The notes: generated from the letters alone by a model not told the origin. 22,098 nucleotides of DNA from Syntrophus sp. (in: bacteria) (GCA_013824835.1 PNOM01000051.1:1-22098), one strand, 5' to 3'; counted from the stretch's first letter, positions 2,079 through 18,978 are shown. Numbers and translations are program-made.

Positions 2079-2115
2079 CCAATAGAAGCAACTACAAGGA
2101 TCTCAGGAGGTTATT

Positions 2116-6259: not shown

Positions 6260-6310
6260 GTGGTTGTTTTTCCAAAGATATCCATTTATTATGTGATTGA
6301 AGGGGTAAAG

Positions 6311-7291
6311 ATGAAAAAGATTAATCTTGTTATCTTCGTATGTTTGTTGATTGTCGTTTCTGTTTTCGGGATCGCCGAAGGTGCAGATGATCTGAAGCCA
6401 GAGGCTTTGAAGAACCTTCAAAAGTCTGTGGTAAAGGCATTGCCTGTTGAAGGAAACATTGTCCGCATTGCAGTTCTTGATTTTAAGGGCGATGATGGTA
6501 CTGTCAAAAATGCCGTAATTTCAATTATCACGGAAAAAACCCCTTTTAAGGTCATAGAGCGGACAGACCTTGACAAGATTCTCAACGAGCAGGGTCTTCA
6601 ACTGAGAGATGTCATGGATGAAAAGACGAGGATACGGCACGGCAGATTAAAAGGCGTACAGGGGTTGCTCATGGGCAAAGTCCAGGGTATGGAGAAGGGC
6701 TTTATGTCCTATACGATCAAGGTTCATCTGAAGCTTGATGATGTAGAAAGAGGAGAAATTGTCTTTTCAAAGGATTTTAACGTCAGCGCGGTTTCACCCT
6801 TGAGGAAGATCCTTTTTGTTGTAATTGCTGTTTTTATGGCAGGGATCATTGTAATAATGTTCCTCGCAAGGAGAAAGGGTTCAATAAAGGAATCGGTAAT
6901 AAGCAAGGATGTAAAAGCCCGGGCCGATCTCACAATGGAAATGAATAAAGCCTTGACGATTGTGGGAGAGACAAAAAAGAGGCTCATGGATAAAGGAAGG
7001 ACAGATGAGGCAGTACTTCTGAAGGATGCTGAAAGAGACCTGCTTTTTCTTAAAGAGAGTATTAATAATGCAGCAAGAGGGAATGGAGGAACAGGGAGCG
7101 TAACAGGGCTGAAAGAAACTCTTAAGTTTGATAAGGGGTTTGCCGATTCCGTTCAGAACCTTTCCAGGATTTCAGGGATGCTTCACGATAACGTAATATC
7201 GGGAAGCTCAGGATCTCTCGAAAGAGAGATAGATAGCTTCAGGAGAAATATCAAGATTGCAATGAACGGATTCGGCAACCAGCGGCCATAA
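6311..7291 (+). CDS. Bitopic membrane protein with a periplasmic CsgG/LpoB-like domain and a cytoplasmic coiled tail
   Basis: ATG 6311 preceded by GAAGGGG. It has a signal peptide (MKKINLVIFVCLLIVVSVFGIAEG). The motif IAVLDFKGDDG...FKVIERTDLDKILNEQGLQL matches the conserved core of the CsgG/LpoB/TolB-N fold. A TM helix follows (ILFVVIAVFMAGIIVIMFL) with a C-terminal tail of about 150 aa. The ORF track's GTG 6260 extension is less likely. Confidence 0.65.
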   Translation: MKKINLVIFVCLLIVVSVFGIAEGADDLKPEALKNLQKSVVKALPVEGNIVRIAVLDFKGDDGTVKNAVISIITEKTPFKVIERTDLDKILNEQGLQLRDVMDEKTRIRHGRLKGVQGLLMGKVQGMEKGFMSYTIKVHLKLDDVERGEIVFSKDFNVSAVSPLRKILFVVIAVFMAGIIVIMFLARRKGSIKESVISKDVKARADLTMEMNKALTIVGETKKRLMDKGRTDEAVLLKDAERDLLFLKESINNAARGNGGTGSVTGLKETLKFDKGFADSVQNLSRISGMLHDNVISGSSGSLEREIDSFRRNIKIAMNGFGNQRP

Positions 7292-7357
7292 TGGAAGCCC
7301 TTCTTCAGCCGTCATTGTTTGTATGCTTTTCGAAGATGAATGAAAAAGGGGGTACCC

Positions 7358-8875
7358 ATGGCAGGAATAATTCGATGCAGCAAAGGACATGAAAACATTG
7401 AGGGCGATAATTTCTGCAGATTTTGCGGAGAAAGGATAGGTGTCGTCGAGACACCGCCGCCTATTGCGGGCATGTTGTGGCAGAGAGGCGCCAATGATTT
7501 TGTTACGAGGATTGATACCGACGACCTGCAGGGAATCCTGAAAAAAGGCATAATCATTGAACAAAGCACAAAGGCGCTCCTTTTCATTAACGGTACTCTC
7601 GCTGAAACTCTGTATCCTGGAAAGTATGACCTCGGGGGCCTCACCGGCATACTCAGGCCTTTTGAACCGTTCAGGACTGTTACAGCCCTCCTTGTTGACT
7701 CGGGTGATATTGAGTTTCCCTTTACCGTAACTGACGTATACACAAATGATCCTCTGAAGATTGGTGTTAGTTGCAAGATTATCATACAGATTGAGAACCC
7801 TGTTGTATTTCTTAACAATGTAATGAAGGGGAGAAAAAATTATCTCATCGGCGAGATCAGGGGTGCCCTCTATGACGAGCTGCAGAATGCGCTCAATGAA
7901 ACGGTGGGTAAAAAATCGTTAATTGACCTTAACTGGGATCTGTCCTTAAAGCAACAGTTTGAGGTCCAGGTGGAAAACCATCTCAGGACAACCTTCCAGC
8001 GGATGGGGTTGAGTTTAATCCAACTCAGGACCATAGATTACCGTTTCCAGGCCTTTGACAAAATCAGGGGTGTCTATGAAGAAATCTATCTTCAAGTGAG
8101 TGAAGAGGAAGCCCTTCTTCAGAAGAGAAAGCGGTTGTTTGATCTCTATGACCACAATCAGATTCAGGGCATTATCGAAGACACGAAAGAGCTTGAATAC
8201 AGGGAACAAAGGCAGAAGGTATGGGCCAACATGAGGCGCCTTGTCAATTCTGACAAGATGGATGATGTTAAGTCTGCCGATGACCTTGAAGCCTTTATTC
8301 ATGAAATGGATAAAGGGAAAATACTGCGGGATGAAGAGGTAAAAGACCTTGCGAATACCTTTGCCCAGAGCGGCCTGAGAAGAGATTTTCTGTTAAGTAA
8401 AATGCAGCTTGAGCAGGGGCTTGAGGCCCAGAGGATTCAGATGCTGGGCGCGGCTGAAAACGATCTGGCAGAATGGGAAATCCGGGCCAGGAAAGAACGG
8501 GAAGAGCTGGACATGAGCCTTGAAGGTCTTGAACGGGTTAAAAAAATAAAAACCCAGGAAAAACGTGAAGAAACGGATATTGAAATCGAAAGAGTGGGGC
8601 GTCTTACCCAATTGGGCGTTGAGGCGTTAATTCACGCCTCAGGTGTGGAGCAGGCGCAGATATTGGCAGACCTCAAGAAGACTGAAATATTAAAAGACCT
8701 GCCTGATGAAAAGATACTTGCCCTGGGGGCAAAGGATTCACCTGAGCTTGCGAAGGCCTTTCAGGAGAAATTCAGAGGGTTTTCATCGGATCTCCAGAAG
8801 AAAATGTATGAGGAGATGATGGAACAAAAAGATCAGTCCATGCGAATATTGCTGGAGATGTTTAATAAGAGATAA
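7358..8875 (+). CDS. SPFH/band-7 (flotillin-like) protein with an N-terminal zinc ribbon and a C-terminal coiled coil
   Basis: CSKGHENIEGDNFCRFCG is a zinc ribbon. The SPFH core is present (IIIEQSTKALLFINGTLAETLYPGKYDL ... TVTDVYTNDPLKIGVSCKIIIQIENPVVFLNNV). A long charged helical C-terminus resembles flotillin. SD AAAGGGGG lies 6 nt upstream of ATG 7358; the alternative ATG is at 7340. Confidence 0.75.
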   Translation: MAGIIRCSKGHENIEGDNFCRFCGERIGVVETPPPIAGMLWQRGANDFVTRIDTDDLQGILKKGIIIEQSTKALLFINGTLAETLYPGKYDLGGLTGILRPFEPFRTVTALLVDSGDIEFPFTVTDVYTNDPLKIGVSCKIIIQIENPVVFLNNVMKGRKNYLIGEIRGALYDELQNALNETVGKKSLIDLNWDLSLKQQFEVQVENHLRTTFQRMGLSLIQLRTIDYRFQAFDKIRGVYEEIYLQVSEEEALLQKRKRLFDLYDHNQIQGIIEDTKELEYREQRQKVWANMRRLVNSDKMDDVKSADDLEAFIHEMDKGKILRDEEVKDLANTFAQSGLRRDFLLSKMQLEQGLEAQRIQMLGAAENDLAEWEIRARKEREELDMSLEGLERVKKIKTQEKREETDIEIERVGRLTQLGVEALIHASGVEQAQILADLKKTEILKDLPDEKILALGAKDSPELAKAFQEKFRGFSSDLQKKMYEEMMEQKDQSMRILLEMFNKR

Positions 8876-8906
8876 ATATCAATATCAATCAGCAGGATAG
8901 GATATC

Positions 8907-8931
8907 GAGCCGTAAAATCGGCTCTTCAACC
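8907..8931 (+). terminator. Weak hairpin after the SPFH gene
   Basis: GAGCCG-taaaat-CGGCTC followed by TTCAACC. The T-tract is poor, so it is only a candidate. Confidence 0.25.
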
Positions 8932-9092
8932 TTGGTTGCCCCGCGGTAAGACACGGGGTAGTTCATTTTAGGTTTGTTTTGGCCATCCGGCAGCTGTTTT
9001 TATTCTAATGGTGTGCTAAGGTATAGAGAGGAAGAATGGAGGTCAACACAGCGCAATTTTTTTGTATAAATGATATTCACAGAGGATGACGG

Positions 9093-12000
9093 ATGGTCTG
9101 CACAAAATGTGGTAATAACAACACCGATGATGCGGTCTTTTGTGTAAGCTGCGGGGCAAATCTTACTGATCAGACCCCATCTCAAAAAAGGCCTGACAGC
9201 GGTTTTTCCCAGGACATTGACACTGCACCCGGAGACCCCTCTTCCCATGACAACCTCGACCGTCTCGCCCACACCTCTATAAAGGATAACCATGATGCCC
9301 GCGGTTCCGGAGGGGCCCGCATCCCTGCAAGAGAAGAGGGTCTTTTCTTTTCTGTAGGCTCCTTTTTTGCTTCCCGGTACGAGATTCTCTCAGAAGGGAA
9401 AAAGGGCGGCATGGGTGTTGTTTATAAGGTAAAAGATGCCAAGCTTAACAAAATAAAGGCTTTGAAGGTTATCCATCCGAGGCTCTTATCCTCCCCCCAG
9501 GCCCTGTCACGATTCAGGCAGGAAGTCTCCTTATCCCAGGATCTCCACCACCTCAATATTGTAAGTGTCTATGATCTTGATGAATACCATGGAAGAGAGT
9601 TTTTCACCATGGAGTGGATAGAAGGACCATCCTTAAGGGAACTCCTCGCAGAGAGGAGGAAGGAACATAAGCCTTTCACCCTGGAGGAAGCCTGTGCCAT
9701 CATTTCCCAGCTTTCCGATGCCCTCTCTTATGCCCATCAATACACCATCCATCGGGATATTAAACCGGAGAATATATTAGTACAGAGGTCAGCAACCAGC
9801 AATCAGAAAACAAGAGAGACCATCCCCACCATTCCCCCTTTCGCAAAGGGGGAATTTATCCTCAAATTAACCGACTTTGGCATTGCCAAGATGCTCTCCC
9901 CGGCAGAGCTCATTACCACATCCCTTCAGATGGGTACTCCCTACTACATGGCGCCGGAGCAGAAGCTTGATGCTGCACATGTTGACCATAGAGCTGATAT
10001 CTATGCAGCAGGGGTAGTGTTCTTTGAACTTCTTACCTTAGAGAACACCATAGGGCCTGATCTTCCCAGTGAACTCAATTGTGCTGTCCCAAAAGAAGTA
10101 GATGGCATCTACCGGAAAGCGGTTGCGACAAAACCGGAGAACCGATGGGGAGAGGTAAGGGAACTATCTCAAGCCCTCCACACCATAATTATCGCGGAGA
10201 GGAGAAAGAGTGAGGAGGGGGTATGGAAGGAGGGATGGCATAGGAAAACCGATGCCAAAGAGAGAACAGGAAAAGAGACGGGAGAGGTTGGAAGGAAGAC
10301 GATTGAGAATGAATGTCTCACGGTGGAAACTGAAGAGACAGAGTTGAGAAGGTTGGGGGAAGAGAGACTTCGCACAGAAAACAAAGAGAAAAAAAGAGCG
10401 GAAGAAGAGAAGAATAGAATCGAAGAGGAGGGACTGCGCAAGGAAACAGAGGAAAGGAGGCGGAAAGAAGAGGAAAAGCGCCTCCTGAGGGAACAGGAGG
10501 AGGCTGAAAAACAGATTCTGACGGATGAACTCAAGGGACAGAAAGAAAGATCAAGAAAGCGATCAAGGATTATTCTTATTAGTTTCTGCATCTTTGGGGC
10601 AATGGTGCTCCTTGCGTCGGCTATCGGATATGTCTCCTACCGCCACGCACAGCAGCAGGTTGTCCTAACCCGGCAGCTTGAAAAAGAGAAAAGGGAAAAA
10701 GAACAATTAACAGAAAGGCAGAAGGCGATAGAAGCAAAACAGCAGGCAGACCTGCAGAGGCTGGAAGAACAAAGGAAACATGAAGATCGAAAAATATATG
10801 TTGATGAGAAAAAACAGGAAGGCCGGATAAAACAAGGGCAGTTGCTTCTTCGGAAGGCTCGGGCTTCTATAAAAAAGGGAAACCTCTCAGATGCACGAAG
10901 TTATCTCGAAGAGGCAAAGGGGTTTATTCCGGATGATAAGAATGTTGTAAGTATGGCCAATATCATTGAGAATGAAGAGAAAAAACAGAAAGTTGCTGTA
11001 GACAGGCAGCGCCAGTATGAGGAGGAAAAACGGGCAGAAGAACAAAAACGGGCAGAAGAACAAAAACGGGCAGAAGAACAAAAAAGAAAAGAAGCAGAAG
11101 AAAAAAGGGTTGCTGAAGAACAAAGGCTTGCAAGAGAGCGAAAGATTGCAGAGGAACAAAAAGTTGCAAGGGAACGAAAGGCAGAGGAGGAACGAAGGCT
11201 TGCAGAACAGAAAAGACAGAAGGAAGAACAAAGGCTTGCAAGAGAGCGAAAGGCGGCGGAAGAGCTTGCCGAAAAACAGAGAGCTGCTGAAGCTAAATGG
11301 CAGGGGGGTATAATAAAACTGAATTACACTAATTTTTTCCCGGCTACACACCTTCAAAGCATCACTGCAGAGAAATGGTGCCGGGAAATAGAGAAAAAGA
11401 CCCGTAACAGGATTAAATTTGCCTATTATCCGGGAGGCGCCCTTACGCCGCCGCCTCAAACCTATGATGCCGTTGTGAAGGGTACTGCCGACATTGGAAT
11501 GAGTGTTTTTGCCTATACAAAAGGAAGATTCCCCCTCACGGAAGTTATTGATCTGCCCCTTGGTTATCGGAGCGGTCTTGTGGCAACAAGGCTGATAAAT
11601 GAATACTACAAAAGGTTTCGACCCAATGAGCTTGGTGATGTTAAAGTGCTTTATCTCCATGCTCATGGTCCGGGAATATTGCATACAAAGAGCCCTGTAT
11701 ACAGGCTTGAAGACTTGAGTGGCATGAAAATAAGAGCTACAGGACCGGCAGCAAAAATTGCGCCCGCCCTTGGGGCTGCGCCTGTGGCCATATCGATGCC
11801 GGAGGCATATGACGCCCTCCGCACCGGTGTTGCAGAGGGGGCTTTTGTTCCCATTGAGGCCCTCCTGGGCTGGAAATGGGGTGAAGTTATAAATTCGACA
11901 ACCCAATGTTTCGGCGTTGCATATTCAATCGGCATGTTTGTTGTGATGAATAAAACAAAGTGGAATTCCCTTCCCCCGGATATTCAAAGGATTTTTGAAC

Positions 12001-12245
12001 AGGTCAGCGCCGAATGGATAGAAGTTCAGGGCAGGGCATGGGATGAAATAGACAAAAAGGGGAGAGAATTTACTTTAAGAAGGGGTAATAAACTTATTCC
12101 CTTATCTCAAGAGGAAGATGCACGATGGACTGCAAGAGTACGGCCACTCCTTGATGAATATGTAAGAAATACAAGATCAAAGGGGCTTCCTGGAGATGAA
12201 GCATTGAAATTCTGCCTTGATTACCTTGCCAGGCATAAGAGATGA
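9093..12245 (+). CDS. Ser/Thr protein kinase with an N-terminal zinc ribbon, one TM segment, a KE-rich helical stalk and a C-terminal DctP/TRAP-type solute-binding domain
   Basis: The zinc ribbon is CTKCGNNNTDDAVFCVSCG. Kinase motifs are GKKGGMGVVYKV, ALKVI, HRDIKPENILV, DFGIAK and PYYMAPE. The TM helix is IILISFCIFGAMVLLASAIGYV (about nt 10566-10635). KE-rich repeats include EEQKRAEEQKRAEEQKR. The C-terminal domain resembles DctP (IKLNYTNFFPATHLQS...KFAYYPGGAL...DAVVKGTADIGMSVFAYTKGRFPLTEVIDLPLGY ... ALRTGVAEGAFVPIEALLGWKWGEV). Confidence 0.85.
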   Translation: MVCTKCGNNNTDDAVFCVSCGANLTDQTPSQKRPDSGFSQDIDTAPGDPSSHDNLDRLAHTSIKDNHDARGSGGARIPAREEGLFFSVGSFFASRYEILSEGKKGGMGVVYKVKDAKLNKIKALKVIHPRLLSSPQALSRFRQEVSLSQDLHHLNIVSVYDLDEYHGREFFTMEWIEGPSLRELLAERRKEHKPFTLEEACAIISQLSDALSYAHQYTIHRDIKPENILVQRSATSNQKTRETIPTIPPFAKGEFILKLTDFGIAKMLSPAELITTSLQMGTPYYMAPEQKLDAAHVDHRADIYAAGVVFFELLTLENTIGPDLPSELNCAVPKEVDGIYRKAVATKPENRWGEVRELSQALHTIIIAERRKSEEGVWKEGWHRKTDAKERTGKETGEVGRKTIENECLTVETEETELRRLGEERLRTENKEKKRAEEEKNRIEEEGLRKETEERRRKEEEKRLLREQEEAEKQILTDELKGQKERSRKRSRIILISFCIFGAMVLLASAIGYVSYRHAQQQVVLTRQLEKEKREKEQLTERQKAIEAKQQADLQRLEEQRKHEDRKIYVDEKKQEGRIKQGQLLLRKARASIKKGNLSDARSYLEEAKGFIPDDKNVVSMANIIENEEKKQKVAVDRQRQYEEEKRAEEQKRAEEQKRAEEQKRKEAEEKRVAEEQRLARERKIAEEQKVARERKAEEERRLAEQKRQKEEQRLARERKAAEELAEKQRAAEAKWQGGIIKLNYTNFFPATHLQSITAEKWCREIEKKTRNRIKFAYYPGGALTPPPQTYDAVVKGTADIGMSVFAYTKGRFPLTEVIDLPLGYRSGLVATRLINEYYKRFRPNELGDVKVLYLHAHGPGILHTKSPVYRLEDLSGMKIRATGPAAKIAPALGAAPVAISMPEAYDALRTGVAEGAFVPIEALLGWKWGEVINSTTQCFGVAYSIGMFVVMNKTKWNSLPPDIQRIFEQVSAEWIEVQGRAWDEIDKKGREFTLRRGNKLIPLSQEEDARWTARVRPLLDEYVRNTRSKGLPGDEALKFCLDYLARHKR
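11041..11094 (+). repeat. Perfect 3 x 18 bp in-frame tandem repeat (ACGGGCAGAAGAACAAAA, encoding RAEEQK) inside the kinase stalk
   Basis: Three identical 18 bp units are seen directly. Degenerate 36 bp repeats of about 180 bp follow (11095-11275) and encode (AEEQRLARERK)n. TTGCAAGAGAGCGAAAG occurs twice. Confidence 0.9.
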
Positions 12246-13492
12246 TGGATAAAGAAGCCGAAACCAACATCATGGCAGATCACCTTAAGACCGGGGAATG
12301 TTCTGCTGAAACCATCCAGAAGCAGATGCCCGTCATCGTCTCAGACCTTTCTGCCCTTTACGAAATCATACGGTCCAATCCGGATATAAAAGCCCGGAAA
12401 GATGCTGCAACCCATCTGCTCGGCCTTGTTGATACATATGAAGATATTGATGTGGATATGATAACAGAGGTCTACAGATCTGAGAGAGAGATTGCGGTTG
12501 CCACGGTATTGAAAAGGGTTTTGAACAAATTACAGATCAAGCAGATCCTTACCCATGACCCGACCGAGGGGTATGATCCGAGGCTTTCCCCTGAAGAAGA
12601 GTTAAAAATAAACGAAGAGATCAAAAGACTCAAAAGGCTTTATGATACGTCGAAGAAGGAAGAAGGCTCCTTTGACCGGAAATACAGCATTGTTCAGCAT
12701 ATTGATCAGGGAGGGATGGCTAAGATTTATAAAGGGATAAAGCTTGATGACAATCAGCCCGTTGCTATAAAGTTCCTCCTCCTTGAAGAACTTTCTCACC
12801 ATATTAATCCGGAAAGACTGATTGCACGGTTCAGGAGGGAAGGCGAGCTTCTGACAAAAAGGCTGAAGCATCCTAACATTATTAAGGCATTCGAATACGG
12901 TGAAGCTGATAAGGAATATTATATTGTCCTGGAGTATGTTGAAGGGGAAACCCTTGAAGGCATGATTAAACAAAAGCCCCTTGATCTCGATAATTTTAAA
13001 AAGGTTGCCCTGCAGATCCTTGATGCCGTCGAATATATCCACGGAAATGACGTGATACACAGGGACATAAAACCGGGGAATATACTTGTTGAACGGTCAG
13101 CGGTCAGCGGTCAAACATTAGAGGAAGCCCGTTGGTGTACAATCAAACTTGCCGATTTTGGGCTCGCGAAGGACAAATATGATAAGAAGCTTTCAAAGCT
13201 TTTCTTTCAGGGAGGGACCGACCTCTATTCATCCCCCCAGCAGTTGAGGGATACGCGGGATGTTGATGAAAGAGATGATATCTTCTCCGTGGGCAAGACA
13301 TTATACGAGATGCTCACAGGAAAGACCTTTACCAATGATGAGTCGTACATGCCTATGGTCCTGGAAAACGACCTCCTTTCCCAAGAGGTCAACACTGTTA
13401 TCCGGAAGTGTCTTAGTCATGAACGGCAGGACAGGTATCGGAATATACATGAATTGAGGAGCGCCTTGCTGGGCGCCCTTCGGGCAGCATAA
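12242..13492 (+). CDS. Ser/Thr protein kinase paralog (cytoplasmic, N-terminal domain of about 130 aa of unknown function)
   Basis: ATGA overlap with the upstream kinase gene. Kinase motifs are DQGGMAKIYKG, VAIKFLL, HRDIKPGNILV and DFGLAK. It shares an unusual RSA(T/V)S insertion between the catalytic loop and DFG with the upstream kinase. The APE motif is replaced by SPQ. Confidence 0.85.
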   Translation: MMDKEAETNIMADHLKTGECSAETIQKQMPVIVSDLSALYEIIRSNPDIKARKDAATHLLGLVDTYEDIDVDMITEVYRSEREIAVATVLKRVLNKLQIKQILTHDPTEGYDPRLSPEEELKINEEIKRLKRLYDTSKKEEGSFDRKYSIVQHIDQGGMAKIYKGIKLDDNQPVAIKFLLLEELSHHINPERLIARFRREGELLTKRLKHPNIIKAFEYGEADKEYYIVLEYVEGETLEGMIKQKPLDLDNFKKVALQILDAVEYIHGNDVIHRDIKPGNILVERSAVSGQTLEEARWCTIKLADFGLAKDKYDKKLSKLFFQGGTDLYSSPQQLRDTRDVDERDDIFSVGKTLYEMLTGKTFTNDESYMPMVLENDLLSQEVNTVIRKCLSHERQDRYRNIHELRSALLGALRAA

Positions 13493-13527
13493 AAACTGGT
13501 TCCAATTAATTAAAAGATAGAGCAAAC

Positions 13528-14301
13528 ATGGACGAGAAGAAACGTATTTATATAAAGGTGGATTCCATCATTAAAGAGGACGGCAAATCCTCCTATATCG
13601 GCGAGGATGATTATGTGAGCCTTACAAAAGATGGAATTATCATCCATTTCCATATTAAAAATCCTTCCATCCATATGGAGAATGTCTTGAGGACAGTAAA
13701 ACGGGCCCAGAAGATCGTAAGGGACCGCCTTGACTATGAACTCGAAAATATTGATATCAGTATTTACGGGTCAAAAGAGGAACTCAGACAGGAAGGCAGG
13801 TCAAGGAGTGTATATGCTTCATGGATAGCGGGAATATTTGATGGAAAAATCAGGATTATTGCTGATGGAGGGGAAGAAGATCCGGAAGCGCTCTATATTG
13901 TCCTGACTCACGAGATTATTCATCTTGCAGTATTTCATATAGGCCAGGGGCAATGCCCTTACTGGATGGAAGAGGGAGTGGCTGTGTATCTTTCCCAGGA
14001 GCTCCCGGACCAATACCTCCATGCACTGAAAAAGGCGATTAAGTCCGATAGAATACTGCCCCTTGATGCCCTGAAAACCCCCCTCCCCGTTGATGTTGAC
14101 CTGGACATACGTCAGCTTCTCTACTCGGAAACATCCAGCATCGTCGAGTACCTTGTGGAATCCTACGGCTGGGATGCAGTCAAGTCCATAATCCGGCAAT
14201 GCAGACAGGTGAAATTCAGCGAACTGTTAGCCGGCCTGAGTCTCAATCACTATCTTTTAGAACAGGGGTGGAAAAGGTGGTACAGGAATAAAAATGCATA
14301 A
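13528..14301 (+). CDS. Peptidase_MA-like (gluzincin-type HExxH...E) domain protein
   Basis: THEIIHLAVFH (HExxH) is followed by WMEEGVAVYL, with the third-ligand Glu in an EGxAxY context as in the Peptidase_MA_2 family. No signal peptide is visible. Confidence 0.6.
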   Translation: MDEKKRIYIKVDSIIKEDGKSSYIGEDDYVSLTKDGIIIHFHIKNPSIHMENVLRTVKRAQKIVRDRLDYELENIDISIYGSKEELRQEGRSRSVYASWIAGIFDGKIRIIADGGEEDPEALYIVLTHEIIHLAVFHIGQGQCPYWMEEGVAVYLSQELPDQYLHALKKAIKSDRILPLDALKTPLPVDVDLDIRQLLYSETSSIVEYLVESYGWDAVKSIIRQCRQVKFSELLAGLSLNHYLLEQGWKRWYRNKNA

Positions 14302-14336
14302 AATTCCCTTCAAAATAGTCCTAATAGGAGCGGGCA

Positions 14337-14930
14337 ATGATAGATTTTAAATCTATTACAGATGAAGACCTTTACGGGATGTGTGCTTCGGGAGACGAAG
14401 GAGCCTGGAGATATTTGTATAACTATATACTGAAGATATGCGAATGGAGCAGGATTGATGATCCTGAAGATATGGCGAGCACCGTAACCCTGGAACTCAT
14501 AGAAAGGGCCCTGAAAAAGGTCAGGCATAAAGACAAATTCAGGAGTTTTGTAAAGGTGATGACGAAAAACAGGATCATTGACAGTTTCAAGTCCTCCTCA
14601 AAGAAAGAAATACCTATGAGCAGCTTTATAAAAGATGATGACGAGGATGGGGTAACCCCGGAGATAGGACGCCAGGAGCCTGATCAGATAGAAAGCCTTT
14701 TTCGAACCGAGATTGCTGCTATAGTAGACGCAGCCATAGAGAAGCTCCCGATAAGGTGCCGGAATATTATCCGGGAATATTTGAATTTCAAAAAGGGGCT
14801 CTATGACAATTACGAGGAGCTGAGCAGGGTGCTTGAAATGCCGGTCCCGACCATATCTTCCAGTGTCAGCAGATGCATGAAGATATTGGTTAATTATAAA
14901 GAAATCAAGACATTAAAAACGTTTGCATAA
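14337..14930 (+). CDS. Divergent ECF-like sigma factor
   Basis: Weak region 2 (FRSFVKVMTKNRIIDSFKS) and region 4 (LPIRCRNIIREYLNFKKGLYDNYEELSRVLEMPVPTISSSVSRCMKIL) similarity. It is followed by a zf-HC2 ORF. Confidence 0.5.
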   Translation: MIDFKSITDEDLYGMCASGDEGAWRYLYNYILKICEWSRIDDPEDMASTVTLELIERALKKVRHKDKFRSFVKVMTKNRIIDSFKSSSKKEIPMSSFIKDDDEDGVTPEIGRQEPDQIESLFRTEIAAIVDAAIEKLPIRCRNIIREYLNFKKGLYDNYEELSRVLEMPVPTISSSVSRCMKILVNYKEIKTLKTFA

Positions 14931-14942
14931 AGGGAGGCTGCC

Positions 14943-15386
14943 ATGAAATGCAATGAGATCAATTTTATCGAATATATAGAAGGCAGAGCCTCGGAAAAGA
15001 CTGAGGCCCATATAAAGGAGTGCAGGAAATGTCAGAAAGAATCTGTTAAGTTTTCCAGGTTTGTTAATCTTATTACCCCGATGTGGGCAGCGGGCAGGGC
15101 GCTTGAAGCAGAGCTTGACAGGGACCTCCAGTCAATGGATCCAAGAAAGATGAAATATCTTCCCGATACTATTTCTAAAAAGGTAACAGAGCTAAGGGAA
15201 AGAAGCATTGTCGGGAAACTCAAAAGGGTACTCGGCAGAGGGAAGGAAAATGCCCAGGAGCTTATTGATGGTATTATGAGCCCCCGGGCCCACGCAGTAC
15301 CGGCCAGTCCCGCTGATCTCACAAAAACCGGGAAACCAAAGGGGAAGAAGGCGCCTATCCGGAAGAAAGGTCCTGAAAGCAAGTAA
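14943..15386 (+). CDS. Putative cytoplasmic anti-sigma factor (zf-HC2-like) with a basic C-terminal tail
   Basis: HIKECRKCQ is an Hx3Cx2C motif near the N-terminus, and the gene sits immediately downstream of the sigma-like gene. There is no TM segment. The C-terminus is KPKGKKAPIRKKGPESK. Confidence 0.45.
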   Translation: MKCNEINFIEYIEGRASEKTEAHIKECRKCQKESVKFSRFVNLITPMWAAGRALEAELDRDLQSMDPRKMKYLPDTISKKVTELRERSIVGKLKRVLGRGKENAQELIDGIMSPRAHAVPASPADLTKTGKPKGKKAPIRKKGPESK

Positions 15387-15437
15387 ATCCTCTTTTCTTG
15401 GCAGCCTTTTCTGCATAAACTTCTTATCCTCCTCCGT

Positions 15438-15470
15438 CCTTAATAGCATCGCCACACTATTAAGGAGGGG
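15438..15470 (+). promoter_or_regulatory. Hairpin that can sequester the SD of the downstream small membrane protein gene
   Basis: CCTTAATAG (15438-15446) pairs with CTATTAAGG (15457-15465). The second arm overlaps the SD AAGGAGGGG (15462-15470), which lies 5 nt before ATG 15476. Confidence 0.35.
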
Positions 15471-15475
15471 ATGTC

Positions 15476-15784
15476 ATGAATCCTGTAATAAACACGGCAT
15501 TAGTAGCATCTGTTTTCGGTGTTTTCGGGTTTTTTCTTGCCTTTTCCCTGAAACGGGCAACCAACATCATCGTCTTCGGCATTTTTGCCTATGCCTCTTT
15601 TAAAGCCCTGGATTATCTTGGCGTGACAACGGACTGGAAGCTTTTCGATAATTTTGTCCATACCTTCACGCAGCTCGGGAGGACAACCCTTGATCTGATA
15701 AGCGGGGTATTGAACACGGCCACCTTTATCTCCGTGGCATGTTTTCTCTGTGGCGGTGTATCTGGTCTTCTCTTGAGGAAGTAG
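15476..15784 (+). CDS. Small 3-TM membrane protein (possibly FUN14-like)
   Basis: 102 aa with three hydrophobic helices and a strong SD. The Gly-rich TM pattern resembles the FUN14 family, but the assignment is weak. Confidence 0.55.
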   Translation: MNPVINTALVASVFGVFGFFLAFSLKRATNIIVFGIFAYASFKALDYLGVTTDWKLFDNFVHTFTQLGRTTLDLISGVLNTATFISVACFLCGGVSGLLLRK

Positions 15785-15790
15785 GCCCTT

Positions 15791-17167
15791 GTGGAACGAA
15801 CATCTGAATTGAAATATCTTCTCCCGGTACTGCTGGTGATCAGCATTGCCTTTCTGCTCCTTCAGTCAAGCTATGGGGACAGAAACATTCCCATATCGAT
15901 TGCAACCTTAAAGGGCGGCCTTGATATTTCCGATTACTTTCTTACCCCACTCCCTAACGCAATACATGCTTCTTTGTTTGTGGCCCTTTTTATGCTTACT
16001 CACATCTATCTGAGAATTAAACTTCCCGGCGCTGATCCCTTTATCCTGCCTGCCGTGGCCCTTCTCTCCGGCATTGGGCTGATTATGGTACTCCGGCTCT
16101 CTCCTGACCTTGCAATTTCCCGGAATGAGGTGCTCCTCTCTGTCTTCAGCAGGGCGCCCGATGCAACTATTACAGACAATGTCCACACCCTCGTCCAAAT
16201 GGGCATGAGACATTTTATCAATATTGTGCTGGGCATACTGGTATTGATCGGTGCATTGAATGGATTTAACAAACGGGCTTTCTCCTGGCTTTCGTCAAAG
16301 AAATACTGCTGGGTGCTCCTTTCAGCAGTTCTCATAACAGTCACCCTTCTTTTCGGTACCAAAATTAACGGGAGGAAGCTCTGGATATTCGGTTTTCAGT
16401 CTGTGGAAGCGGTAAAACTGATGATGCTCTTTTTTGTTTCAGGATATATCTACGAAAAGGGAAAGGGCATCGAGCTTTACCGGCAGGGGGGCTTCAAGCA
16501 CTGGCTCGGCTACGCGGTGCCTTTTGTGGCTATGTGGTTCTTTGCCCTGGTACCCCTTTTTATCCAGAAAGACCTCGGCCCTACGGTTTTGATTTTTGTT
16601 GTCCTCCTCCTCATGTTCTCCTATGCAGGCAACCGCAGTACAGTGACTATGCTCTTTATTCTATTGACCCTGTCAGCAGGGTTTATTTCTTATAACATCG
16701 GCTATCCATCTATTGTCCGGGAGAGGTTTGACATGCTCCTTGACCCCTTTGGGAGAAGCGAGGCAATGACAAGGGTGCTCTGGGCAATATCTTCCGGAGG
16801 TCTCATGGGTACAGGCATCGGGTATGGTCAGCCCCACAGGATCCCTGAGGTGCAGTCAGATTTTAACTTTACCGCCATCTGCGAAGAGATGGGATTTGTC
16901 GGCGCCATTTCTATCATCCTGGGGTATGCCCTTTTCCTCCATAGATGTTTCAAGATTGCATCCGCTGCAGAAAATGTATACAAAAAGACTCTCGTTGTCG
17001 GCATTGGCACATTAACCGGGATGCAGGCATGTATTATCATTTGCGGGAATCTGAATATAATACCCTTAACGGGAATCACCCTTCCCTTTATCAGTTACGG
17101 GGGAAGTTCACTCATAGTCAATTTTCTTATGGCAGGTATTGTGCTCAAAATATCCGGGGAAAAATAA
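15791..17167 (+). CDS. SEDS-family peptidoglycan glycosyltransferase (RodA/FtsW)
   Basis: Multi-pass membrane protein with the diagnostic C-terminal motif NLNIIPLTGITLPFISYGGSSLIVNFLMAG. GTG start at 15791. The stop overlaps the PBP start (TAATG). Confidence 0.88.
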   Translation: MERTSELKYLLPVLLVISIAFLLLQSSYGDRNIPISIATLKGGLDISDYFLTPLPNAIHASLFVALFMLTHIYLRIKLPGADPFILPAVALLSGIGLIMVLRLSPDLAISRNEVLLSVFSRAPDATITDNVHTLVQMGMRHFINIVLGILVLIGALNGFNKRAFSWLSSKKYCWVLLSAVLITVTLLFGTKINGRKLWIFGFQSVEAVKLMMLFFVSGYIYEKGKGIELYRQGGFKHWLGYAVPFVAMWFFALVPLFIQKDLGPTVLIFVVLLLMFSYAGNRSTVTMLFILLTLSAGFISYNIGYPSIVRERFDMLLDPFGRSEAMTRVLWAISSGGLMGTGIGYGQPHRIPEVQSDFNFTAICEEMGFVGAISIILGYALFLHRCFKIASAAENVYKKTLVVGIGTLTGMQACIIICGNLNIIPLTGITLPFISYGGSSLIVNFLMAGIVLKISGEK

Positions 17168-18978
17168 TGGCCATCTATAGATTGAGGGTCATCACGGTCC
17201 TCTTTGTTGTGCTTGCAGGGGTTGCAGCCTATTCCCTTTTTGACAGGATGATTCTGAAAAAGGATGAGATTGTCTCTACCCGCTACAGGGATAAAAAGTT
17301 CACTGACCTTATGAAGGGTCTTATCAATGAAGGGATCATCAAAACAACGGGGGAAGAGATTGCTATAGATGAAGAACTGCTTATTGCGAAAGGTCTTAAC
17401 AAAAAGACGGCGGACCGGGTAAGGCGGAGCATAAAGTTCTGCTATATGAAGAAAGATGCCCTCTATTTTGACGGCCAATCAGTTTCAGTGCTCAATAACA
17501 GGGGTTCGGGAGATGAAACTGTTTTACGGGGAAGCATCATGGATAGAAACGGGATTACCCTTGCAAAGAGCACCCTTGACGAAAAGGCATGGAAATTAAA
17601 ACGGGAGTACACATACGGGCCTGAGATGTTTCCTGTAGTAGGGCATTACAGCGCTGTTTACGGCAGCCGGTATCTGGAAAAGGAATTGGATAGATATCTC
17701 AGCGGCCAATCTCATGACCCCATATATTTGACTACGAATGACCCCTTCAAGAAGGTCAGGCTCGGGGACGAAGTAACGCTGACCATAAACAACAGGATAC
17801 AAAAGTTTGCCTATGATCTTATGGATGGTAAAAAAGGTGCTATAGTGGTCCTTGACGTAAGGACAGGGGAAATTCTTGCGGCAGTCAGCACCCCGTCCTT
17901 TGACCCGAATACAAAGGAAGGGGATACATGGAGAAACACATTTGCAGACAGGAAAGAGAGGCTCTATGAAAACAGGGCCTTTGGAGCACTCTATCCGCCG
18001 GGTTCAACCTTCAAGACTGTTGTTGCGTCCGCATGGATCGACAGGAGTGAAGGTAAAAGGCAAGCATCAAGCTCCCTTTTTCAGCGAACCGCCGCAGATG
18101 GGGAATCCCAGGGCCGTGCCGGGCATGTCACCATGTGCAGCAGCAAAAAGAACAGGTATGATATTTCGGATATTCATACCCATGGAAGAGTGGATATAGA
18201 CAGGGCGCTCATTGTGTCCTGCAATCAGTTCTTCAGTGAAATCGGGGTGACCCTCGGCCCGGAAATGGTCAAATACGCCGAAGGATACGGGTTCAACAGA
18301 GGTATAGAGCTTGTCCCTCAGTTGAAGGACCTTCATTGCAGCGCCACACCGAGCCTCGCCCTTTCATGGCAGGAGGACCAGGCCAAGGGCGCTGGAATAA
18401 AGACCTATCATGGTAAGGATTTCAGAAGAAACCCGAAGATAGTTGCCCAGGGCGCCATAGGGCAGAACCTTGTTGTTGCCACCCCCCTCCAGATGGCCAT
18501 GGTGGCGGCAGCGATTGCAAATAAGGGTACTGTTCTCAACCCCTACCTGGTAAAAGAGATTAAAACAGGAGATAACTGGGAAAGAATATTTTCCGCAAAA
18601 CCTGTAGTTATGGGCAAGACTGTTCGGGAAGAGACTGCTGAAAGGTTAAGAAGCCTCATGGCAAGGGTCATGGAGAGCGGGACAGGGAAAAACGTTAAAA
18701 AGGTCTATATTGAAGGGGGGAAACATACCACATCCCCAAAGGACAATAAATCGCCCATCCTGAGGGTTGCAGGCAAGACAGGCACTGCCGAGGTAGGTGA
18801 CAGGAATAACAACGGAATCATAGACCCTGATGAGAATGCCCATTCATGGTTTATAGGTTTCGCACCTGCCGATAATCCGAGGATTGCCATTGCGGTCATT
18901 GCAGAAAACCAGGGCCTCGGGGGCCTCACCGCAGCACCTATTGCTGTAGAGGTAATGGCAGAGGCATTGAATCGATGA
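17167..18978 (+). CDS. Class B penicillin-binding protein (PBP2/FtsI-type transpeptidase)
   Basis: N-terminal TM anchor (VITVLFVVLAGVAAYSLF) and the motifs SxxK (GSTFKTV), SxN (SCNQFF) and KTGT (GKTGTAEV). The true start is ATG 17167, coupled to the SEDS gene. The upstream in-frame extension from 16945 in the ORF track overlaps the SEDS gene. Confidence 0.88.
   Translation: MAIYRLRVITVLFVVLAGVAAYSLFDRMILKKDEIVSTRYRDKKFTDLMKGLINEGIIKTTGEEIAIDEELLIAKGLNKKTADRVRRSIKFCYMKKDALYFDGQSVSVLNNRGSGDETVLRGSIMDRNGITLAKSTLDEKAWKLKREYTYGPEMFPVVGHYSAVYGSRYLEKELDRYLSGQSHDPIYLTTNDPFKKVRLGDEVTLTINNRIQKFAYDLMDGKKGAIVVLDVRTGEILAAVSTPSFDPNTKEGDTWRNTFADRKERLYENRAFGALYPPGSTFKTVVASAWIDRSEGKRQASSSLFQRTAADGESQGRAGHVTMCSSKKNRYDISDIHTHGRVDIDRALIVSCNQFFSEIGVTLGPEMVKYAEGYGFNRGIELVPQLKDLHCSATPSLALSWQEDQAKGAGIKTYHGKDFRRNPKIVAQGAIGQNLVVATPLQMAMVAAAIANKGTVLNPYLVKEIKTGDNWERIFSAKPVVMGKTVREETAERLRSLMARVMESGTGKNVKKVYIEGGKHTTSPKDNKSPILRVAGKTGTAEVGDRNNNGIIDPDENAHSWFIGFAPADNPRIAIAVIAENQGLGGLTAAPIAVEVMAEALNR

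What the first reader, a model, noticed from the sequence alone, without database searches (positions are those of the whole stretch)
9093..12245. Receptor Ser/Thr kinase with a TRAP-transporter (DctP) solute-binding domain as sensor, held on a TolA-like KE-rich stalk
Bacterial eukaryotic-like Ser/Thr kinases (eSTKs) classically sense through PASTA, PQQ or TPR/WD40 domains. Here the extracytoplasmic part is a long charged helical region (EEQKRAEEQKR repeats, reminiscent of TolA domain II) ending in a complete DctP-family binding domain. This implies ligand sensing (a carboxylate or other small solute) near the outer membrane or peptidoglycan layer, transduced to a cytoplasmic kinase. The architecture is rarely if ever described.
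Basis: partly seen in the sequence, partly recalled or inferred. Interest (0 to 1): 0.75.

Follow-up and report, generated by a model that had tools for sequence, protein, structure and literature searches.

The report
Receptor kinase carrying TRAP binding domain
A membrane Ser/Thr kinase from an uncultured deltaproteobacterium carries, where its relatives have other sensor modules, a transporter-type solute-binding domain (probably for an aromatic acid) on a long charged helical stalk; the fusion is real and was not found anywhere else, so the signal this kinase responds to is unusually easy to guess and test.

Summary
ORF 9093-12245 (+) encodes one 1050-aa protein: zinc ribbon, intact Hanks-type kinase, charged cytoplasmic helix, one TM helix (aa 493-516), about 224 aa of charged helical spacer, and a complete DctP/TRAP solute-binding domain (aa 741-1050) whose signal peptide is exactly replaced by the stalk.

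The kinase half belongs to a lineage-specific paralogue family (zinc ribbon, kinase, KE-rich segment, TM, variable ectodomain) set in a conserved cluster with RodA and a PbpA-like PBP.

The binding domain is 63-70% identical to free TRAP binding proteins. Two of these are in the same MAG. It keeps the carboxylate-clamp arginine, and its nearest solved structures are aromatic-acid binders.

No other kinase+DctP protein appeared in the 150 best hits of an exhaustive search of 1.84 billion representatives, in two contig collections, or in the literature searched.

Sensor function is inferred, not shown. I rate it a new variant of a known kind, a singleton in a MAG, of moderate interest.

The parts
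9099..9164 (+). N-terminal zinc ribbon (aa 3-24, CxxC...CxxC)
   Evidence: Pfam Zn_Ribbon_1, 27.5 bits against a cutoff of 25. pLDDT about 90 in the full-length model. Shared by most paralogues (PF13240).
9174..9335 (+). Disordered linker (aa 28-81)
   Evidence: pLDDT 31-37 with no secondary structure in the full-length model.
9360..10187 (+). Hanks-type Ser/Thr kinase domain (aa 90-365): K125, HRD 220-222, DFG 261-263, APE 287-289; activation loop with T275/T276/S277/T282; disordered insert at aa 235-252
   Evidence: Pfam Pkinase E 5.9e-37. Motifs located. pLDDT 81-97. 50-64% identical to the zinc-ribbon kinase paralogues.
10245..10568 (+). Cytoplasmic KE/R-rich juxtamembrane helix (aa 385-492)
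   Evidence: 63% charged over aa 400-490. Modelled as a helix over aa 401-490. Equivalent segments occur in the paralogues.
10569..10640 (+). Single transmembrane helix (aa 493-516), N-terminus inside
   Evidence: Kyte-Doolittle maximum 2.71. It is the only segment above 1.4, and its N-flank is the more basic.
10641..10805 (+). Periplasmic charged helix continuous with the TM (aa 517-571)
   Evidence: Modelled as part of helix 499-571. 48% charged over aa 517-582.
10836..10916 (+). Short helical hairpin (aa 582-608), a motif that recurs in the spacers of paralogues
   Evidence: Helices 582-594 and 598-608 in the model. Similar '...G.YEEA...Y.EAKKI...' motifs occur in L023_11993 and L026_3948.
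10938..11300 (+). Long ER/K-type charged helix, the 'stalk' (aa 616-736); contains 18-bp and 36-bp tandem repeats
   Evidence: One continuous 121-residue helix in the model, pLDDT 61-76. 57-68% charged, with only 16% LIVMF at the best heptad a/d positions. Tandem repeats at 11026-11084 and 11118-11252.
11313..12242 (+). DctP/TRAP-type solute-binding domain (aa 741-1050) without a signal peptide; carboxylate-clamp arginine R881 (codon 11733-11735)
   Evidence: PF03480 E 8.6e-43. 63-70% identical to free 337-404-aa binding proteins, aligned from their mature N-terminus to their C-terminus. Model pLDDT 87.7, TM 0.85-0.89 to TRAP binding proteins. R881 aligns with the conserved arginine.
12242..13492 (+). 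STK2: a second Ser/Thr kinase, with no TM segment noted (hydropathy not computed); its start overlaps the stop codon of the fused ORF
   Evidence: Pkinase E 6.8e-45. ATGA overlap. A 55%-identical orthologue follows a membrane kinase in syntenic locus L026.
7340..8875 (+). Zinc-ribbon SPFH/Band-7 protein, the conserved upstream neighbour
   Evidence: Band_7 E 3.3e-12. Syntenic in L024, L026, L030 and L034.
15791..18978 (+). RodA (SEDS) plus PbpA-like class B PBP, conserved members of the same cluster
   Evidence: FTSW_RODA_SPOVE E 7.7e-48; Transpeptidase E 7e-47 plus PBP_dimer_2. Syntenic in L014, L015, L023 and L024.

Best explanation
This is a bitopic receptor Ser/Thr kinase. Its extracytoplasmic sensor slot, filled in its paralogues by FGE-sulfatase, TPR, SPOR, PEGA, DUF1566 and other modules, has been filled by a TRAP-transporter solute-binding domain.

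Shown:
- One polypeptide with an intact, RD-type kinase inside the cell and a complete, conserved DctP domain outside.
- The two are joined by one TM helix and long charged helices.
- The domain junction sits exactly at the mature N-terminus of free binding proteins.
- The same genome encodes free paralogues of the binding domain.

Inferred:
- The ectodomain still binds a carboxylate, most probably an aromatic or heteroaromatic acid, clamped by R881. It then closes like a Venus flytrap.
- The binding domain hangs by its N-terminus from roughly 220 residues of mostly single-helix spacer, and another roughly 100 charged residues separate the TM from the kinase. A piston-type conformational relay therefore looks unlikely.
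- More probably, ligand occupancy changes self-association or partner docking of the ectodomain. That would alter the local concentration or dimerisation of the kinase domains and hence activation-loop autophosphorylation (T275/T276), as in PknB-type kinases.
- The signal would pass to the translationally coupled soluble kinase STK2 and to other members of the conserved cluster (SPFH protein, RodA/PbpA-like pair, sigma-like protein). Availability of a substrate that the cell also imports through TRAP systems would thus be linked to envelope or growth control.
For: - Architecture and topology.
- Catalytic residues intact.
- Clean junction, with the signal peptide replaced and the native C-terminus kept.
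- Both flanks of the fused gene are syntenic with related loci (ZnSPFH upstream, STK2 downstream), so the DctP segment is embedded in the cluster and not at an assembly seam. GenBank numbering fits one CDS.
- The paralogue family has the same chassis and interchangeable ectodomains.
- The binding domain is conserved. It keeps 96 of 107 positions that are at least 95% conserved in free homologues. Its few differences fall mostly at sites that also vary in outgroups, consistent with a basal branch rather than decay.
- R881 is retained.
- Confident TRAP binding-protein fold.
- The 27 nearest solved structures form one clade. Where the listed titles or the cited papers name a ligand it is an aromatic acid: TarP with coumarate, cinnamate, ferulate, caffeate or 4-hydroxyphenylacetate; metagenome binding proteins 'specific for aromatic acid ligands'; Dde_0634 with D-Trp and indole-3-acetate.
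- The closest free homologues sit beside dctQ-dctM and a three-subunit molybdenum hydroxylase whose best match is 4-hydroxybenzoyl-CoA reductase alpha.
- Free paralogues exist in the same MAG (MBA4418224.1, MBA4419010.1).
- No dctQ/dctM genes in the window.
- Other proteins also use this DctP subfamily as an appended module, including a BlaR1-type M56 signal protease.
Against: - It is a singleton. No second kinase+DctP protein was found, so conservation gives no support for function.
- That absence is weak evidence either way, because the lineage is poorly sampled: the nearest PBP2 homologue is only 56% identical. In L030 and L034, the two loci where a kinase directly follows ZnSPFH as it does here, the contigs end before the ectodomain.
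- The stalk+DctP half has lower GC3 (0.37-0.41) than the kinase half and its neighbours (0.49-0.54). The perfect 18-bp repeats are evolutionarily young. Both fit a recent construct that selection has not yet tested.
- Long charged helices on both sides of the membrane are poor conduits for allosteric signals.
- Ligand class rests on about 30% identity to solved structures and on gene neighbourhood of homologues at up to 70% identity. The hydroxylase alpha subunit scores below the equivalog cutoff (687 against 995 bits).
- There are no expression, binding or phosphorylation data, and the source is a MAG contig.
Confidence: 0.55

Rival explanations
1. Transporter-coupled reading. The tethered binding domain still docks, when ligand-bound and closed, onto a TRAP DctQM membrane unit encoded elsewhere in the genome. 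The protein would then either serve as a membrane-anchored transport binding protein, or report transport activity by bringing the kinase to the transporter (a 'transceptor' complex).
For: - The domain is a near-complete, conserved copy of genuine transporter binding proteins.
- Free paralogues exist in the same genome, so cognate QM units may too, although none was seen.
- Natural DctP-DctQ and DctP-DctP-DctQ fusions exist (P0268, P0241), and so does a TM-anchored DctP (P0275). Tethering is therefore compatible with transport.
- The hairpin at aa 582-608 could let the stalk fold back towards the membrane.
Against: - No dctQ or dctM gene lies in the 22-kb window.
- A spacer of about 220 residues is far longer than docking on a membrane protein requires.
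- A tethered transport binding protein has no obvious need for a kinase.
- Nothing here tests whether the docking surface is conserved.
Confidence: 0.15
2. Evolutionary accident or artefact. The fusion is a recent, possibly neutral or non-functional rearrangement, or a mis-assembly within the repetitive charged region, with no biological role as a sensor.
For: - Singleton status.
- GC3 discontinuity between the two halves.
- Low-complexity repeats lie close to the junction.
- The source is a MAG contig. The exact 1050-aa sequence is not in the protein collection.
Against: - A chimera would need two in-frame seams: one that removes the signal peptide exactly, and one that recreates an ATGA overlap with a syntenic downstream gene.
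- Free binding proteins have no KE-rich sequence for a mis-join to anchor on.
- The DctP segment matches no known gene above 70% identity, so it is not an abundant foreign contig spliced in.
- 96 of 107 conserved positions, including R881, are intact, and 3150 nt are free of stops or frameshifts.
- GenBank numbering fits one CDS.
Confidence: 0.12
3. Non-ligand role. The DctP fold serves as a protein- or envelope-binding or localisation module. The kinase would be regulated otherwise, for example by its cluster partners or by phosphorylation of the juxtamembrane region.
For: - Paralogues carry ectodomains that bind polymers rather than solutes (SPOR, PEGA, Sel1/TPR).
- The long stalk looks like a spacer for reaching a distant structure.
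Against: - The carboxylate-clamp arginine and nearly all family-conserved residues are kept, which a pure scaffold would not need.
- I know of no precedent for a DctP domain acting as a polymer binder (own knowledge).
Confidence: 0.1
4. Anti-phage defence kinase of the PD-T4-6 or MADS type, set in a defence island with restriction-modification and toxin-antitoxin genes.
For: - PADLOC PD-T4-6 and mad6 models match (E down to 1.7e-56), and NCBIfam MAD6 matches weakly.
- A restriction-modification pair and an MNT/HepT pair lie 7-9 kb downstream.
Against: - Nearly all these hits cover only the generic kinase catalytic domain (two longer models extend into low-complexity sequence), and none reaches the DctP domain.
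- The NCBIfam MAD6 score is 117 bits against a cutoff of 460.
- No non-kinase neighbour matches any defence model.
- The cluster is syntenic with RodA/PBP genes in related genomes, which is not island-like.
Confidence: 0.03

Closest known systems
PknB/PrkC/Stk1-type PASTA receptor Ser/Thr kinases
   Same: - Bitopic layout: Hanks kinase inside, one TM, ligand-binding ectodomain outside.
- RD kinase with threonines in the activation loop.
- Genomic association with a RodA / PbpA-type PBP pair, as in the actinobacterial pknB operon (operon comparison from own knowledge; the PbpA-type dimerisation domain PF21922 is).
   Different: - No PASTA repeats. NF033483 scores 192 bits against a cutoff of 450.
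- No FHA protein or PP2C phosphatase in the window.
- The ectodomain is a solute-binding protein rather than a muropeptide or lipid II binder.
- It has an N-terminal zinc ribbon and very long charged spacers.
GlnH-GlnX-PknG of Mycobacterium and Corynebacterium
   Same: A solute-binding protein supplies the chemical input to a Ser/Thr kinase. One review calls it the only characterised kinase of this type stimulated by a binding protein (PMC8050422; PMC6069109).
   Different: - There the system has three separate proteins: the binding protein GlnH (family not checked here), the membrane protein GlnX with 4HB domains, and the soluble kinase PknG.
- Here a TRAP-type (DctP) binding domain is covalently fused to the membrane kinase.
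Venus-flytrap sensor kinases and c-di-GMP enzymes (BvgS, RmcA and other PBP-clan fusions)
   Same: A periplasmic-binding-protein fold is fused to a transmembrane signalling protein as its ligand sensor. PBP-clan domains are described as prevalent in GGDEF/EAL proteins (PMC8846402). BvgS is described in PMC4352136.
   Different: - The outputs are histidine kinase or c-di-GMP domains.
- The studied sensor family there is SBP_bac_3, not DctP.
- The flytrap domain usually sits close to the membrane helix that carries the signal (own knowledge). Here it is attached by its N-terminus to a spacer of about 220 residues.
Animal natriuretic-peptide receptor guanylyl cyclases and related receptors (own knowledge)
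   Same: Same order of modules: a PBP-fold ectodomain, a single TM helix, then a protein-kinase-fold domain inside the cell.
   Different: - Type I (ANF_receptor) fold.
- The kinase-homology domain is a pseudokinase that regulates a cyclase.
- Eukaryotic, and not related by descent.
Free TRAP binding proteins of the aromatic-acid clade (Dde_0634, TarP, marine 5I5P/5I7I; Syntrophorhabdaceae homologues)
   Same: - Same fold and family, with the same arginine clamp.
- 63-70% identity to Syntrophorhabdaceae-type members and about 30% to solved structures.
   Different: - No signal peptide.
- Not free in the periplasm.
- No adjacent dctQM genes.
- Branches at the base of the close clade.
TolA domain II and ER/K single alpha-helices
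   Same: A long, highly charged, probably monomeric helix that could span much of the periplasm. The model gives 121 residues, about 18 nm at 0.15 nm per residue (rise per residue from own knowledge).
   Different: - No sequence homology to TolA. No TolA family appears in the Pfam scan.
- No TolA domain III and no TolQR context.
- The same kind of helix also lies on the cytoplasmic side.

Membership tests
Hanks-type (eukaryote-like) Ser/Thr protein kinases | Pkinase profile match above the curated cutoff | tested here: met
   PF00069, 127.9 bits against a cutoff of 31.7.
Hanks-type (eukaryote-like) Ser/Thr protein kinases | Catalytic residues: VAIK lysine, HRD aspartate, DFG, APE, glycine-rich loop | tested here: met
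   K125 (ALK), HRDIKPEN at 220, DFG at 261, APE at 287. The glycine loop reads KGGMGVV, with the first glycine replaced, as in its paralogues.
Hanks-type (eukaryote-like) Ser/Thr protein kinases | Phosphotransfer activity | not testable with these tools
   Needs an in vitro autophosphorylation assay.
Zinc-ribbon receptor kinase paralogue family of this lineage (unnamed) | N-terminal zinc ribbon, closely related kinase, KE-rich juxtamembrane segment, single TM, variable C-terminal ectodomain | tested here: met
   50-64% identity over the cytoplasmic half to proteins with PF13240+PF00069 and varied C-terminal domains. The same chassis is seen in L014, L015, L023, L026, L027 and L029.
Zinc-ribbon receptor kinase paralogue family of this lineage (unnamed) | Location in the conserved cluster (CsgG-like, ZnSPFH, STK2, Peptidase_MA, sigma-like, RodA, PbpA-like) | tested here: met
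   tblastn synteny in L023, L024, L026, L030 and L034.
DctP family / TRAP transporter solute-binding proteins | Profile match above the curated cutoff | tested here: met
   PF03480, 147.1 bits against 23.4. NF037995 TRAP_S1, 90.5 against 50. The narrower TIGR00787 model is not reached (84.6 against 175).
DctP family / TRAP transporter solute-binding proteins | Two-lobed type II binding-protein fold with the long spanning helix of TRAP binding proteins | tested here: met
   Model pLDDT 87.7, pTM 0.88. Foldseek TM 0.85-0.89, E down to 1e-27, against TRAP binding proteins.
DctP family / TRAP transporter solute-binding proteins | Conserved arginine that clamps the substrate carboxylate (SiaP R147 equivalent; role from established knowledge) | tested here: met
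   R881 in MKIRATG aligns with the arginine in 4n6d, 4nap, 7nr2 and 7nrr. It is invariant among the homologues aligned.
DctP family / TRAP transporter solute-binding proteins | Secreted free periplasmic protein with a cleavable signal peptide or lipobox | tested here: not met
   The signal peptide is replaced by the stalk. The domain is the C-terminus of a membrane protein.
DctP family / TRAP transporter solute-binding proteins | Encoded with dctQ/dctM membrane subunits | tested here: not met
   No DctQ or DctM match in any ORF scanned in the window, whereas free homologues have them nearby. The rest of the genome could not be examined.
DctP family / TRAP transporter solute-binding proteins | Binds a small-molecule ligand and delivers it to DctQM | not testable with these tools
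   Needs binding and transport assays.
PASTA kinases (PknB/Stk1) | Extracellular PASTA repeats and a full-length equivalog score | tested here: not met
   NF033483, 192 bits against a cutoff of 450, with only the kinase part matched. No PASTA domain in Pfam.
TolA | Homology to TolA domains | tested here: not met
   No TolA family among the Pfam matches at E up to 0.01. The resemblance lies in charge composition and helicity only.
PD-T4-6 / MADS defence kinases | Match beyond the generic kinase domain, or companion defence genes | tested here: not met
   PADLOC hits centre on the kinase domain, and neighbours have no hits. MAD6 scores 117 bits against a cutoff of 460.

The most novel reading that the evidence does not exclude
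The protein is a working chemoreceptor kinase of a previously unseen type. A TRAP-family binding domain sits on a rigid single-alpha-helix mast of about 18-26 nm and captures an aromatic acid. It signals not by a conformational relay but by ligand-dependent docking, either to itself or to the cognate TRAP membrane unit. This activates a two-kinase cascade (the membrane kinase, then STK2) that tunes the adjacent RodA/PbpA-like cell-wall synthase pair. Such a system would directly link a named nutrient to peptidoglycan growth through Ser/Thr phosphorylation in a Gram-negative anaerobe.
Probability: 0.12. Interest if true: 0.8.

Novelty: new variant of a known kind. Interest (0 to 1): 0.5.

Why it matters
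For most bacterial Hanks-type kinases the activating stimulus is unknown. [quoted passage not shown]

Here the sensor is a domain from a family whose ligands can be found by routine thermal-shift or ITC screening. Its fold neighbours and gene-context relatives already narrow the search to aromatic carboxylates. That makes this a rare case where the input of a bacterial receptor kinase could be identified quickly.

It also documents three broader points:
- A lineage in which receptor-kinase ectodomains are swapped like cassettes.
- Repeated, sporadic recruitment of TRAP binding domains into non-transport proteins (kinase, trypsin-like, caspase-like and BlaR1-type proteases).
- A natural design (binding domain, single-helix spacer, TM, kinase) that could inform biosensor engineering.

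The limits are that it is a single example from an uncultured organism, and no function has been shown.

Tried and rejected
1. **Looking for a second kinase+DctP protein.**
   - DctP domain against 5.8 billion clusters: the top 120 are all free binding proteins.
   - Kinase half: the top 120 carry other ectodomains.
   - Exhaustive phmmer of the full protein against 1.84 billion representatives, followed by a local two-domain check of all 354 retrieved proteins: 159 matched the kinase, 195 matched DctP, none matched both.
   - Pattern scans of GTDB genomes and JGI metagenomes: each hit matched one half only.
   - L006, whose match began inside the stalk, turned out to be an ordinary 345-aa binding protein.
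2. **Exact look-up of the protein and of its contig**. Not on record, so the source record's own gene call could only be inferred from accession numbering.
3. **Relaxed selection in the fused domain.** It has the most 'unique' substitutions at conserved sites (11). The tree and outgroups show this reflects a basal branch, and other fused DctP domains share no specific loss pattern. I rejected it as evidence of decay or of a lost docking surface.
4. **Low GC3 as a family trait.** Rejected. The discontinuity stays unexplained.
5. **Defence-system reading.** Only generic kinase hits.
6. **Promoter and terminator scan** **and Rfam scan**. Nothing above background.
7. **Literature.** No paper found describes a DctP-kinase fusion. 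The TarP structure paper with pocket residues was not in the library, so pocket-residue mapping beyond R881 was not done.
8. **4-Hydroxybenzoyl-CoA reductase identity of the neighbouring hydroxylase.** It is the best match but below the equivalog cutoff, so I kept it only as a weak lead.

Full report
**1. The observation**

A single ORF runs from 9093 to 12245 on the + strand and encodes 1050 aa. It has a reasonable ribosome-binding site, and its stop codon overlaps the start of the next gene, a second kinase (AGATGATG).

Pfam finds a zinc ribbon (aa 3-24), a protein kinase domain (aa 104-321, E 5.9e-37) and a nearly full-length DctP domain (aa 750-1024, profile positions 6-284 of 286, E 8.6e-43). 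NCBIfam's TRAP_S1 model is passed (90.5 bits against 50).

Hydropathy shows one segment only, aa 493-516, with a Kyte-Doolittle score of 2.71. The next-best window in the protein scores 1.26. The N-terminal flank is the more basic one. With one membrane pass, and a kinase that needs cytoplasmic ATP, the DctP domain must lie outside the cytoplasmic membrane.

**2. Is the fusion real?**

Aligned with free homologues, the fused domain starts exactly at their mature N-terminus (...AQA|QKVITLNY aligned with ...AKWQGGIIKLNY). It runs to their native C-terminus, so only the signal peptide has been replaced, by the stalk.

The upstream gene (zinc-ribbon SPFH protein) and the downstream gene (STK2) are both syntenic with related metagenome loci. 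The DctP segment is therefore embedded between conserved neighbours. A mis-assembly would need two precise in-frame seams.

The window is a 22,098-nt contig of an NCBI MAG labelled 'Syntrophus sp.'. Its flanking proteins are MBA4418268.1 (C0392_10220) and MBA4418270.1 (C0392_10230), which leaves one accession and one locus tag for a single CDS between them. The exact 1050-aa sequence is not in the searchable collections, so I could not read the depositor's call directly. I consider an artefact unlikely (about 0.1), but read-level confirmation is still worthwhile because 18-bp and 36-bp tandem repeats lie near the junction.

**3. Anatomy**

A full-length AlphaFold model gives the following (pLDDT 71.9 overall; relative domain placement is not meaningful):
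- A confident zinc ribbon and kinase.
- A disordered linker, aa 28-81.
- A disordered kinase insert, aa 235-252.
- A cytoplasmic helix, aa 401-490.
- A helix, aa 499-571, that contains the TM and continues into the periplasm.
- A short helical hairpin, aa 582-608.
- One uninterrupted 121-residue helix, aa 616-736, that leads straight into the first beta-strand of the DctP domain at aa 741.

The charged segments are 57-68% K/R/E/D. They show almost no hydrophobic heptad pattern: 16% LIVMF at the best a/d register. They therefore look like ER/K-type single alpha-helices rather than coiled coils. At 0.15 nm per residue (own knowledge), helix 616-736 would be about 18 nm long.

The kinase has K125, HRD 220-222, DFG 261-263, APE 287-289 and activation-loop threonines, so it is predicted to be active and regulated by activation-loop phosphorylation.

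**4. The kinase half belongs to a cassette-swapping paralogue family**

The 120 best matches to aa 1-400 are 35-68% identical by local alignment (two lack a value), and 50-64% among the best 60. They share the layout of zinc ribbon plus kinase, followed by varied C-terminal modules: FGE-sulfatase, TPR, DUF1566, SPOR, PEGA, DUF4384, Sel1 and PPIase. Several often sit on one contig, and none has PF03480.

Full-length examples recovered from metagenome loci show the same chassis: kinase, KE-rich cytoplasmic segment, one TM, charged or proline-rich spacer, ectodomain. A hairpin motif recurs inside the spacers. The KE-rich 'stalk' is therefore a family trait found on both sides of the membrane, not a TolA relative. 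No TolA family matches.

The genes sit in a conserved cluster: CsgG/LpoB-like lipoprotein, zinc-ribbon SPFH protein, one or more membrane kinases, STK2, a Peptidase_MA_2 protein, a sigma-like protein, RodA and a PbpA-type class B PBP. No FHA protein, PP2C phosphatase, dctQ or dctM is present in the window.

**5. The binding domain**

It is 63-70% identical to free binding proteins of 337-404 aa, mostly from Syntrophorhabdaceae MAGs. Two of them (MBA4418224.1 at 68%, MBA4419010.1 at 66%) are from the same MAG as the window.

In a neighbour-joining tree it branches at the base of this close clade, inside outgroups of 47-50% identity. It keeps 96 of the 107 positions that are at least 95% conserved in the free proteins. 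Its 11 differences are mostly conservative and mostly at sites that also vary in outgroups. I see no sign of decay.

R881 occupies the position of the arginine that clamps the substrate carboxylate in TRAP binding proteins (role from established knowledge of SiaP R147).

The domain model is confident (pLDDT 87.7, pTM 0.88). Its 27 best structural matches form one clade. Where a ligand is named, it is an aromatic acid:
- Dde_0634, with D-Trp and indole-3-acetate (PMC10443332 and PMC9973260).
- TarP proteins, with coumarate, cinnamate, ferulate, caffeate or 4-hydroxyphenylacetate.
- Marine binding proteins 'specific for aromatic acid ligands'.

The closest free homologues (P0001, P0055) lie beside dctQ-dctM and a three-subunit xanthine-dehydrogenase-family hydroxylase. 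That enzyme's best NCBIfam match is 4-hydroxybenzoyl-CoA reductase alpha, at 687 bits and below the 995 cutoff. Together these point, weakly, to an aromatic or heteroaromatic carboxylate rather than C4-dicarboxylates, sialic acid or ectoine.

**6. Rarity**

An exhaustive phmmer search of 1.84 billion representative proteins returned 773,240 hits. A second fusion with even about 30% identity in each domain should have scored above that line. Fusions with very divergent DctP domains would have been missed.

Pattern scans of GTDB species genomes and JGI metagenomes found only half-matches.

The lineage is thinly sampled: the nearest PBP2 homologue is 56% identical. In L030 and L034, where a kinase directly follows ZnSPFH as in the window, the contigs end before the ectodomain. 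'Unique' therefore means 'not found', not 'absent'.

The same search showed that this DctP subfamily has been recruited sporadically into other multidomain proteins: DctP-DctQ and DctP-DctP-DctQ, trypsin-like-DctP, PEGA-DctP, caspase-like-DctP, DctP-CARDB-caspase, BlaR1-M56-DctP and a TM-anchored form. Each is a singleton or a tiny cluster.

**7. How it most likely works**

Shown: the anatomy above.

Inferred: the ectodomain binds a carboxylate and closes. The binding domain is attached by its N-terminus to about 220 residues of mostly single-helix spacer, and another 100 or so charged residues separate the TM from the kinase. I therefore think a rigid conformational relay is unlikely.

I favour ligand-dependent self-association, or docking to a partner, that changes kinase proximity and trans-autophosphorylation, as in PknB-type kinases (own knowledge). 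Output would go to STK2 and to cluster partners. Overall confidence in this model is 0.55. Broken down:
- Architecture and topology: about 0.95.
- A functional small-molecule sensor: about 0.6.
- The aromatic-acid ligand class: about 0.5.
- The proximity mechanism: about 0.3.

Rivals are transporter docking (a 'transceptor'; 0.15), an accident or artefact (0.12), a non-ligand scaffold role (0.1) and a defence kinase (0.03; only generic kinase-domain hits in PADLOC).

**8. Comparison with known systems**

It works like a PASTA receptor kinase with a different sensor. It also works like the GlnH-GlnX-PknG system collapsed into one polypeptide; that system is described as the only characterised Ser/Thr kinase stimulated by a binding protein (PMC8050422). 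It shares the principle of Venus-flytrap receptors such as BvgS and PBP-clan c-di-GMP enzymes (PMC4352136, PMC8846402).

It meets the sequence and fold criteria of both the Hanks kinase and DctP families. It fails the 'free secreted protein' and 'adjacent dctQM' features of transport binding proteins. It is not a PASTA kinase, not a TolA relative, and not a recognised defence kinase.

**9. Verdict**

A real and so far unique domain combination that follows an established design principle: a new variant of a known kind. Interest is moderate (0.5). It would be attractive to people seeking ligands for bacterial Ser/Thr kinases, and it is readily testable in vitro. Against that, it is a singleton from a MAG with no functional data.

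One observation is unexplained. GC3 drops from about 0.53 in the kinase half and neighbouring genes to 0.37-0.41 in the stalk and DctP half, and this is not a trait of the binding-protein family.

Noticed in passing
window 19241-19879: An MNT-type nucleotidyltransferase (19241-19531) is followed by a HepT-like toxin split over two overlapping frames: 19528-19776 matches profile positions 1-47, and 19547-19879 matches 77-120. This is probably a frameshifted toxin gene of an MNT/HepT toxin-antitoxin pair.
   Followed up: no
window 20706-21960: A BglII-type restriction endonuclease (E 6.2e-44) overlaps an MT-A70 methyltransferase (E 2.7e-33), forming a type II restriction-modification pair at the contig end.
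   Followed up: no
window 5084-18978; loci L023, L024, L026, L030, L034: A conserved cluster links a CsgG/LpoB-like lipoprotein, a zinc-ribbon SPFH protein, one to several zinc-ribbon receptor kinases, a soluble kinase, a Peptidase_MA_2 protein and a sigma-like protein with RodA and a PbpA-type PBP. It recalls the actinobacterial pknB-pbpA-rodA operon but lacks FHA and PP2C genes, at least in the window.
   Followed up: partly
window 10836-10990 (aa 582-632); L023 11993-14086; L026 3948-6215: A helical-hairpin motif of about 50 aa ('G.YEEA...Y.EAKKI...V..I..VEKKIEE') recurs inside the charged spacers of the kinase paralogues. It lies on the cytoplasmic side in one and in two periplasmic copies in another. 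Its function is unknown.
   Followed up: partly
proteins P0241, P0242, P0247, P0256, P0265, P0268, P0269, P0275: The same DctP subfamily is fused sporadically to DctQ (including a tandem DctP-DctP-DctQ), a trypsin-like protease, PEGA, caspase-like domains (in both orders), a BlaR1-type M56 protease and a plain membrane anchor. Each is a singleton or small cluster.
   Followed up: partly
window 10641-12242 compared with 9360-10187 and neighbouring genes: There is a GC3 discontinuity inside the ORF: stalk 0.37 and DctP 0.41, against kinase 0.53 and neighbours 0.51-0.54. Free homologues in other genomes match their neighbours, so this is not a family trait.
   Followed up: partly
L050 810-9020; L053 647-9029: In Syntrophorhabdaceae-type genomes the closest free binding proteins are conserved next to dctQ-dctM, a CoxG-like gene and a three-subunit molybdenum hydroxylase. 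Its best match is 4-hydroxybenzoyl-CoA reductase alpha, below the equivalog cutoff. This may be an uncharacterised aromatic-acid uptake and hydroxylase module.
   Followed up: partly
window 238-4473: An ECF sigma factor, a zf-HC2/DUF2275 anti-sigma factor and a 785-aa VIT-VWA protein lie in a row upstream of the kinase cluster.
   Followed up: no
window 16945-17167: The mechanical PBP ORF (677 aa) overlaps RodA by 223 nt, but the deposited protein is 603 aa. Its real start therefore lies at about 17167, abutting the RodA stop, which suggests the pair is translationally coupled.
   Followed up: no
L023 6037-9414: In a syntenic locus, an 1125-aa protein with repeated Ig-like segments and what looks by eye like a C-terminal caspase-like (Peptidase_C14) region sits directly upstream of the kinases. 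I did not scan it against Pfam. It would echo the caspase-DctP fusions seen elsewhere.
   Followed up: no
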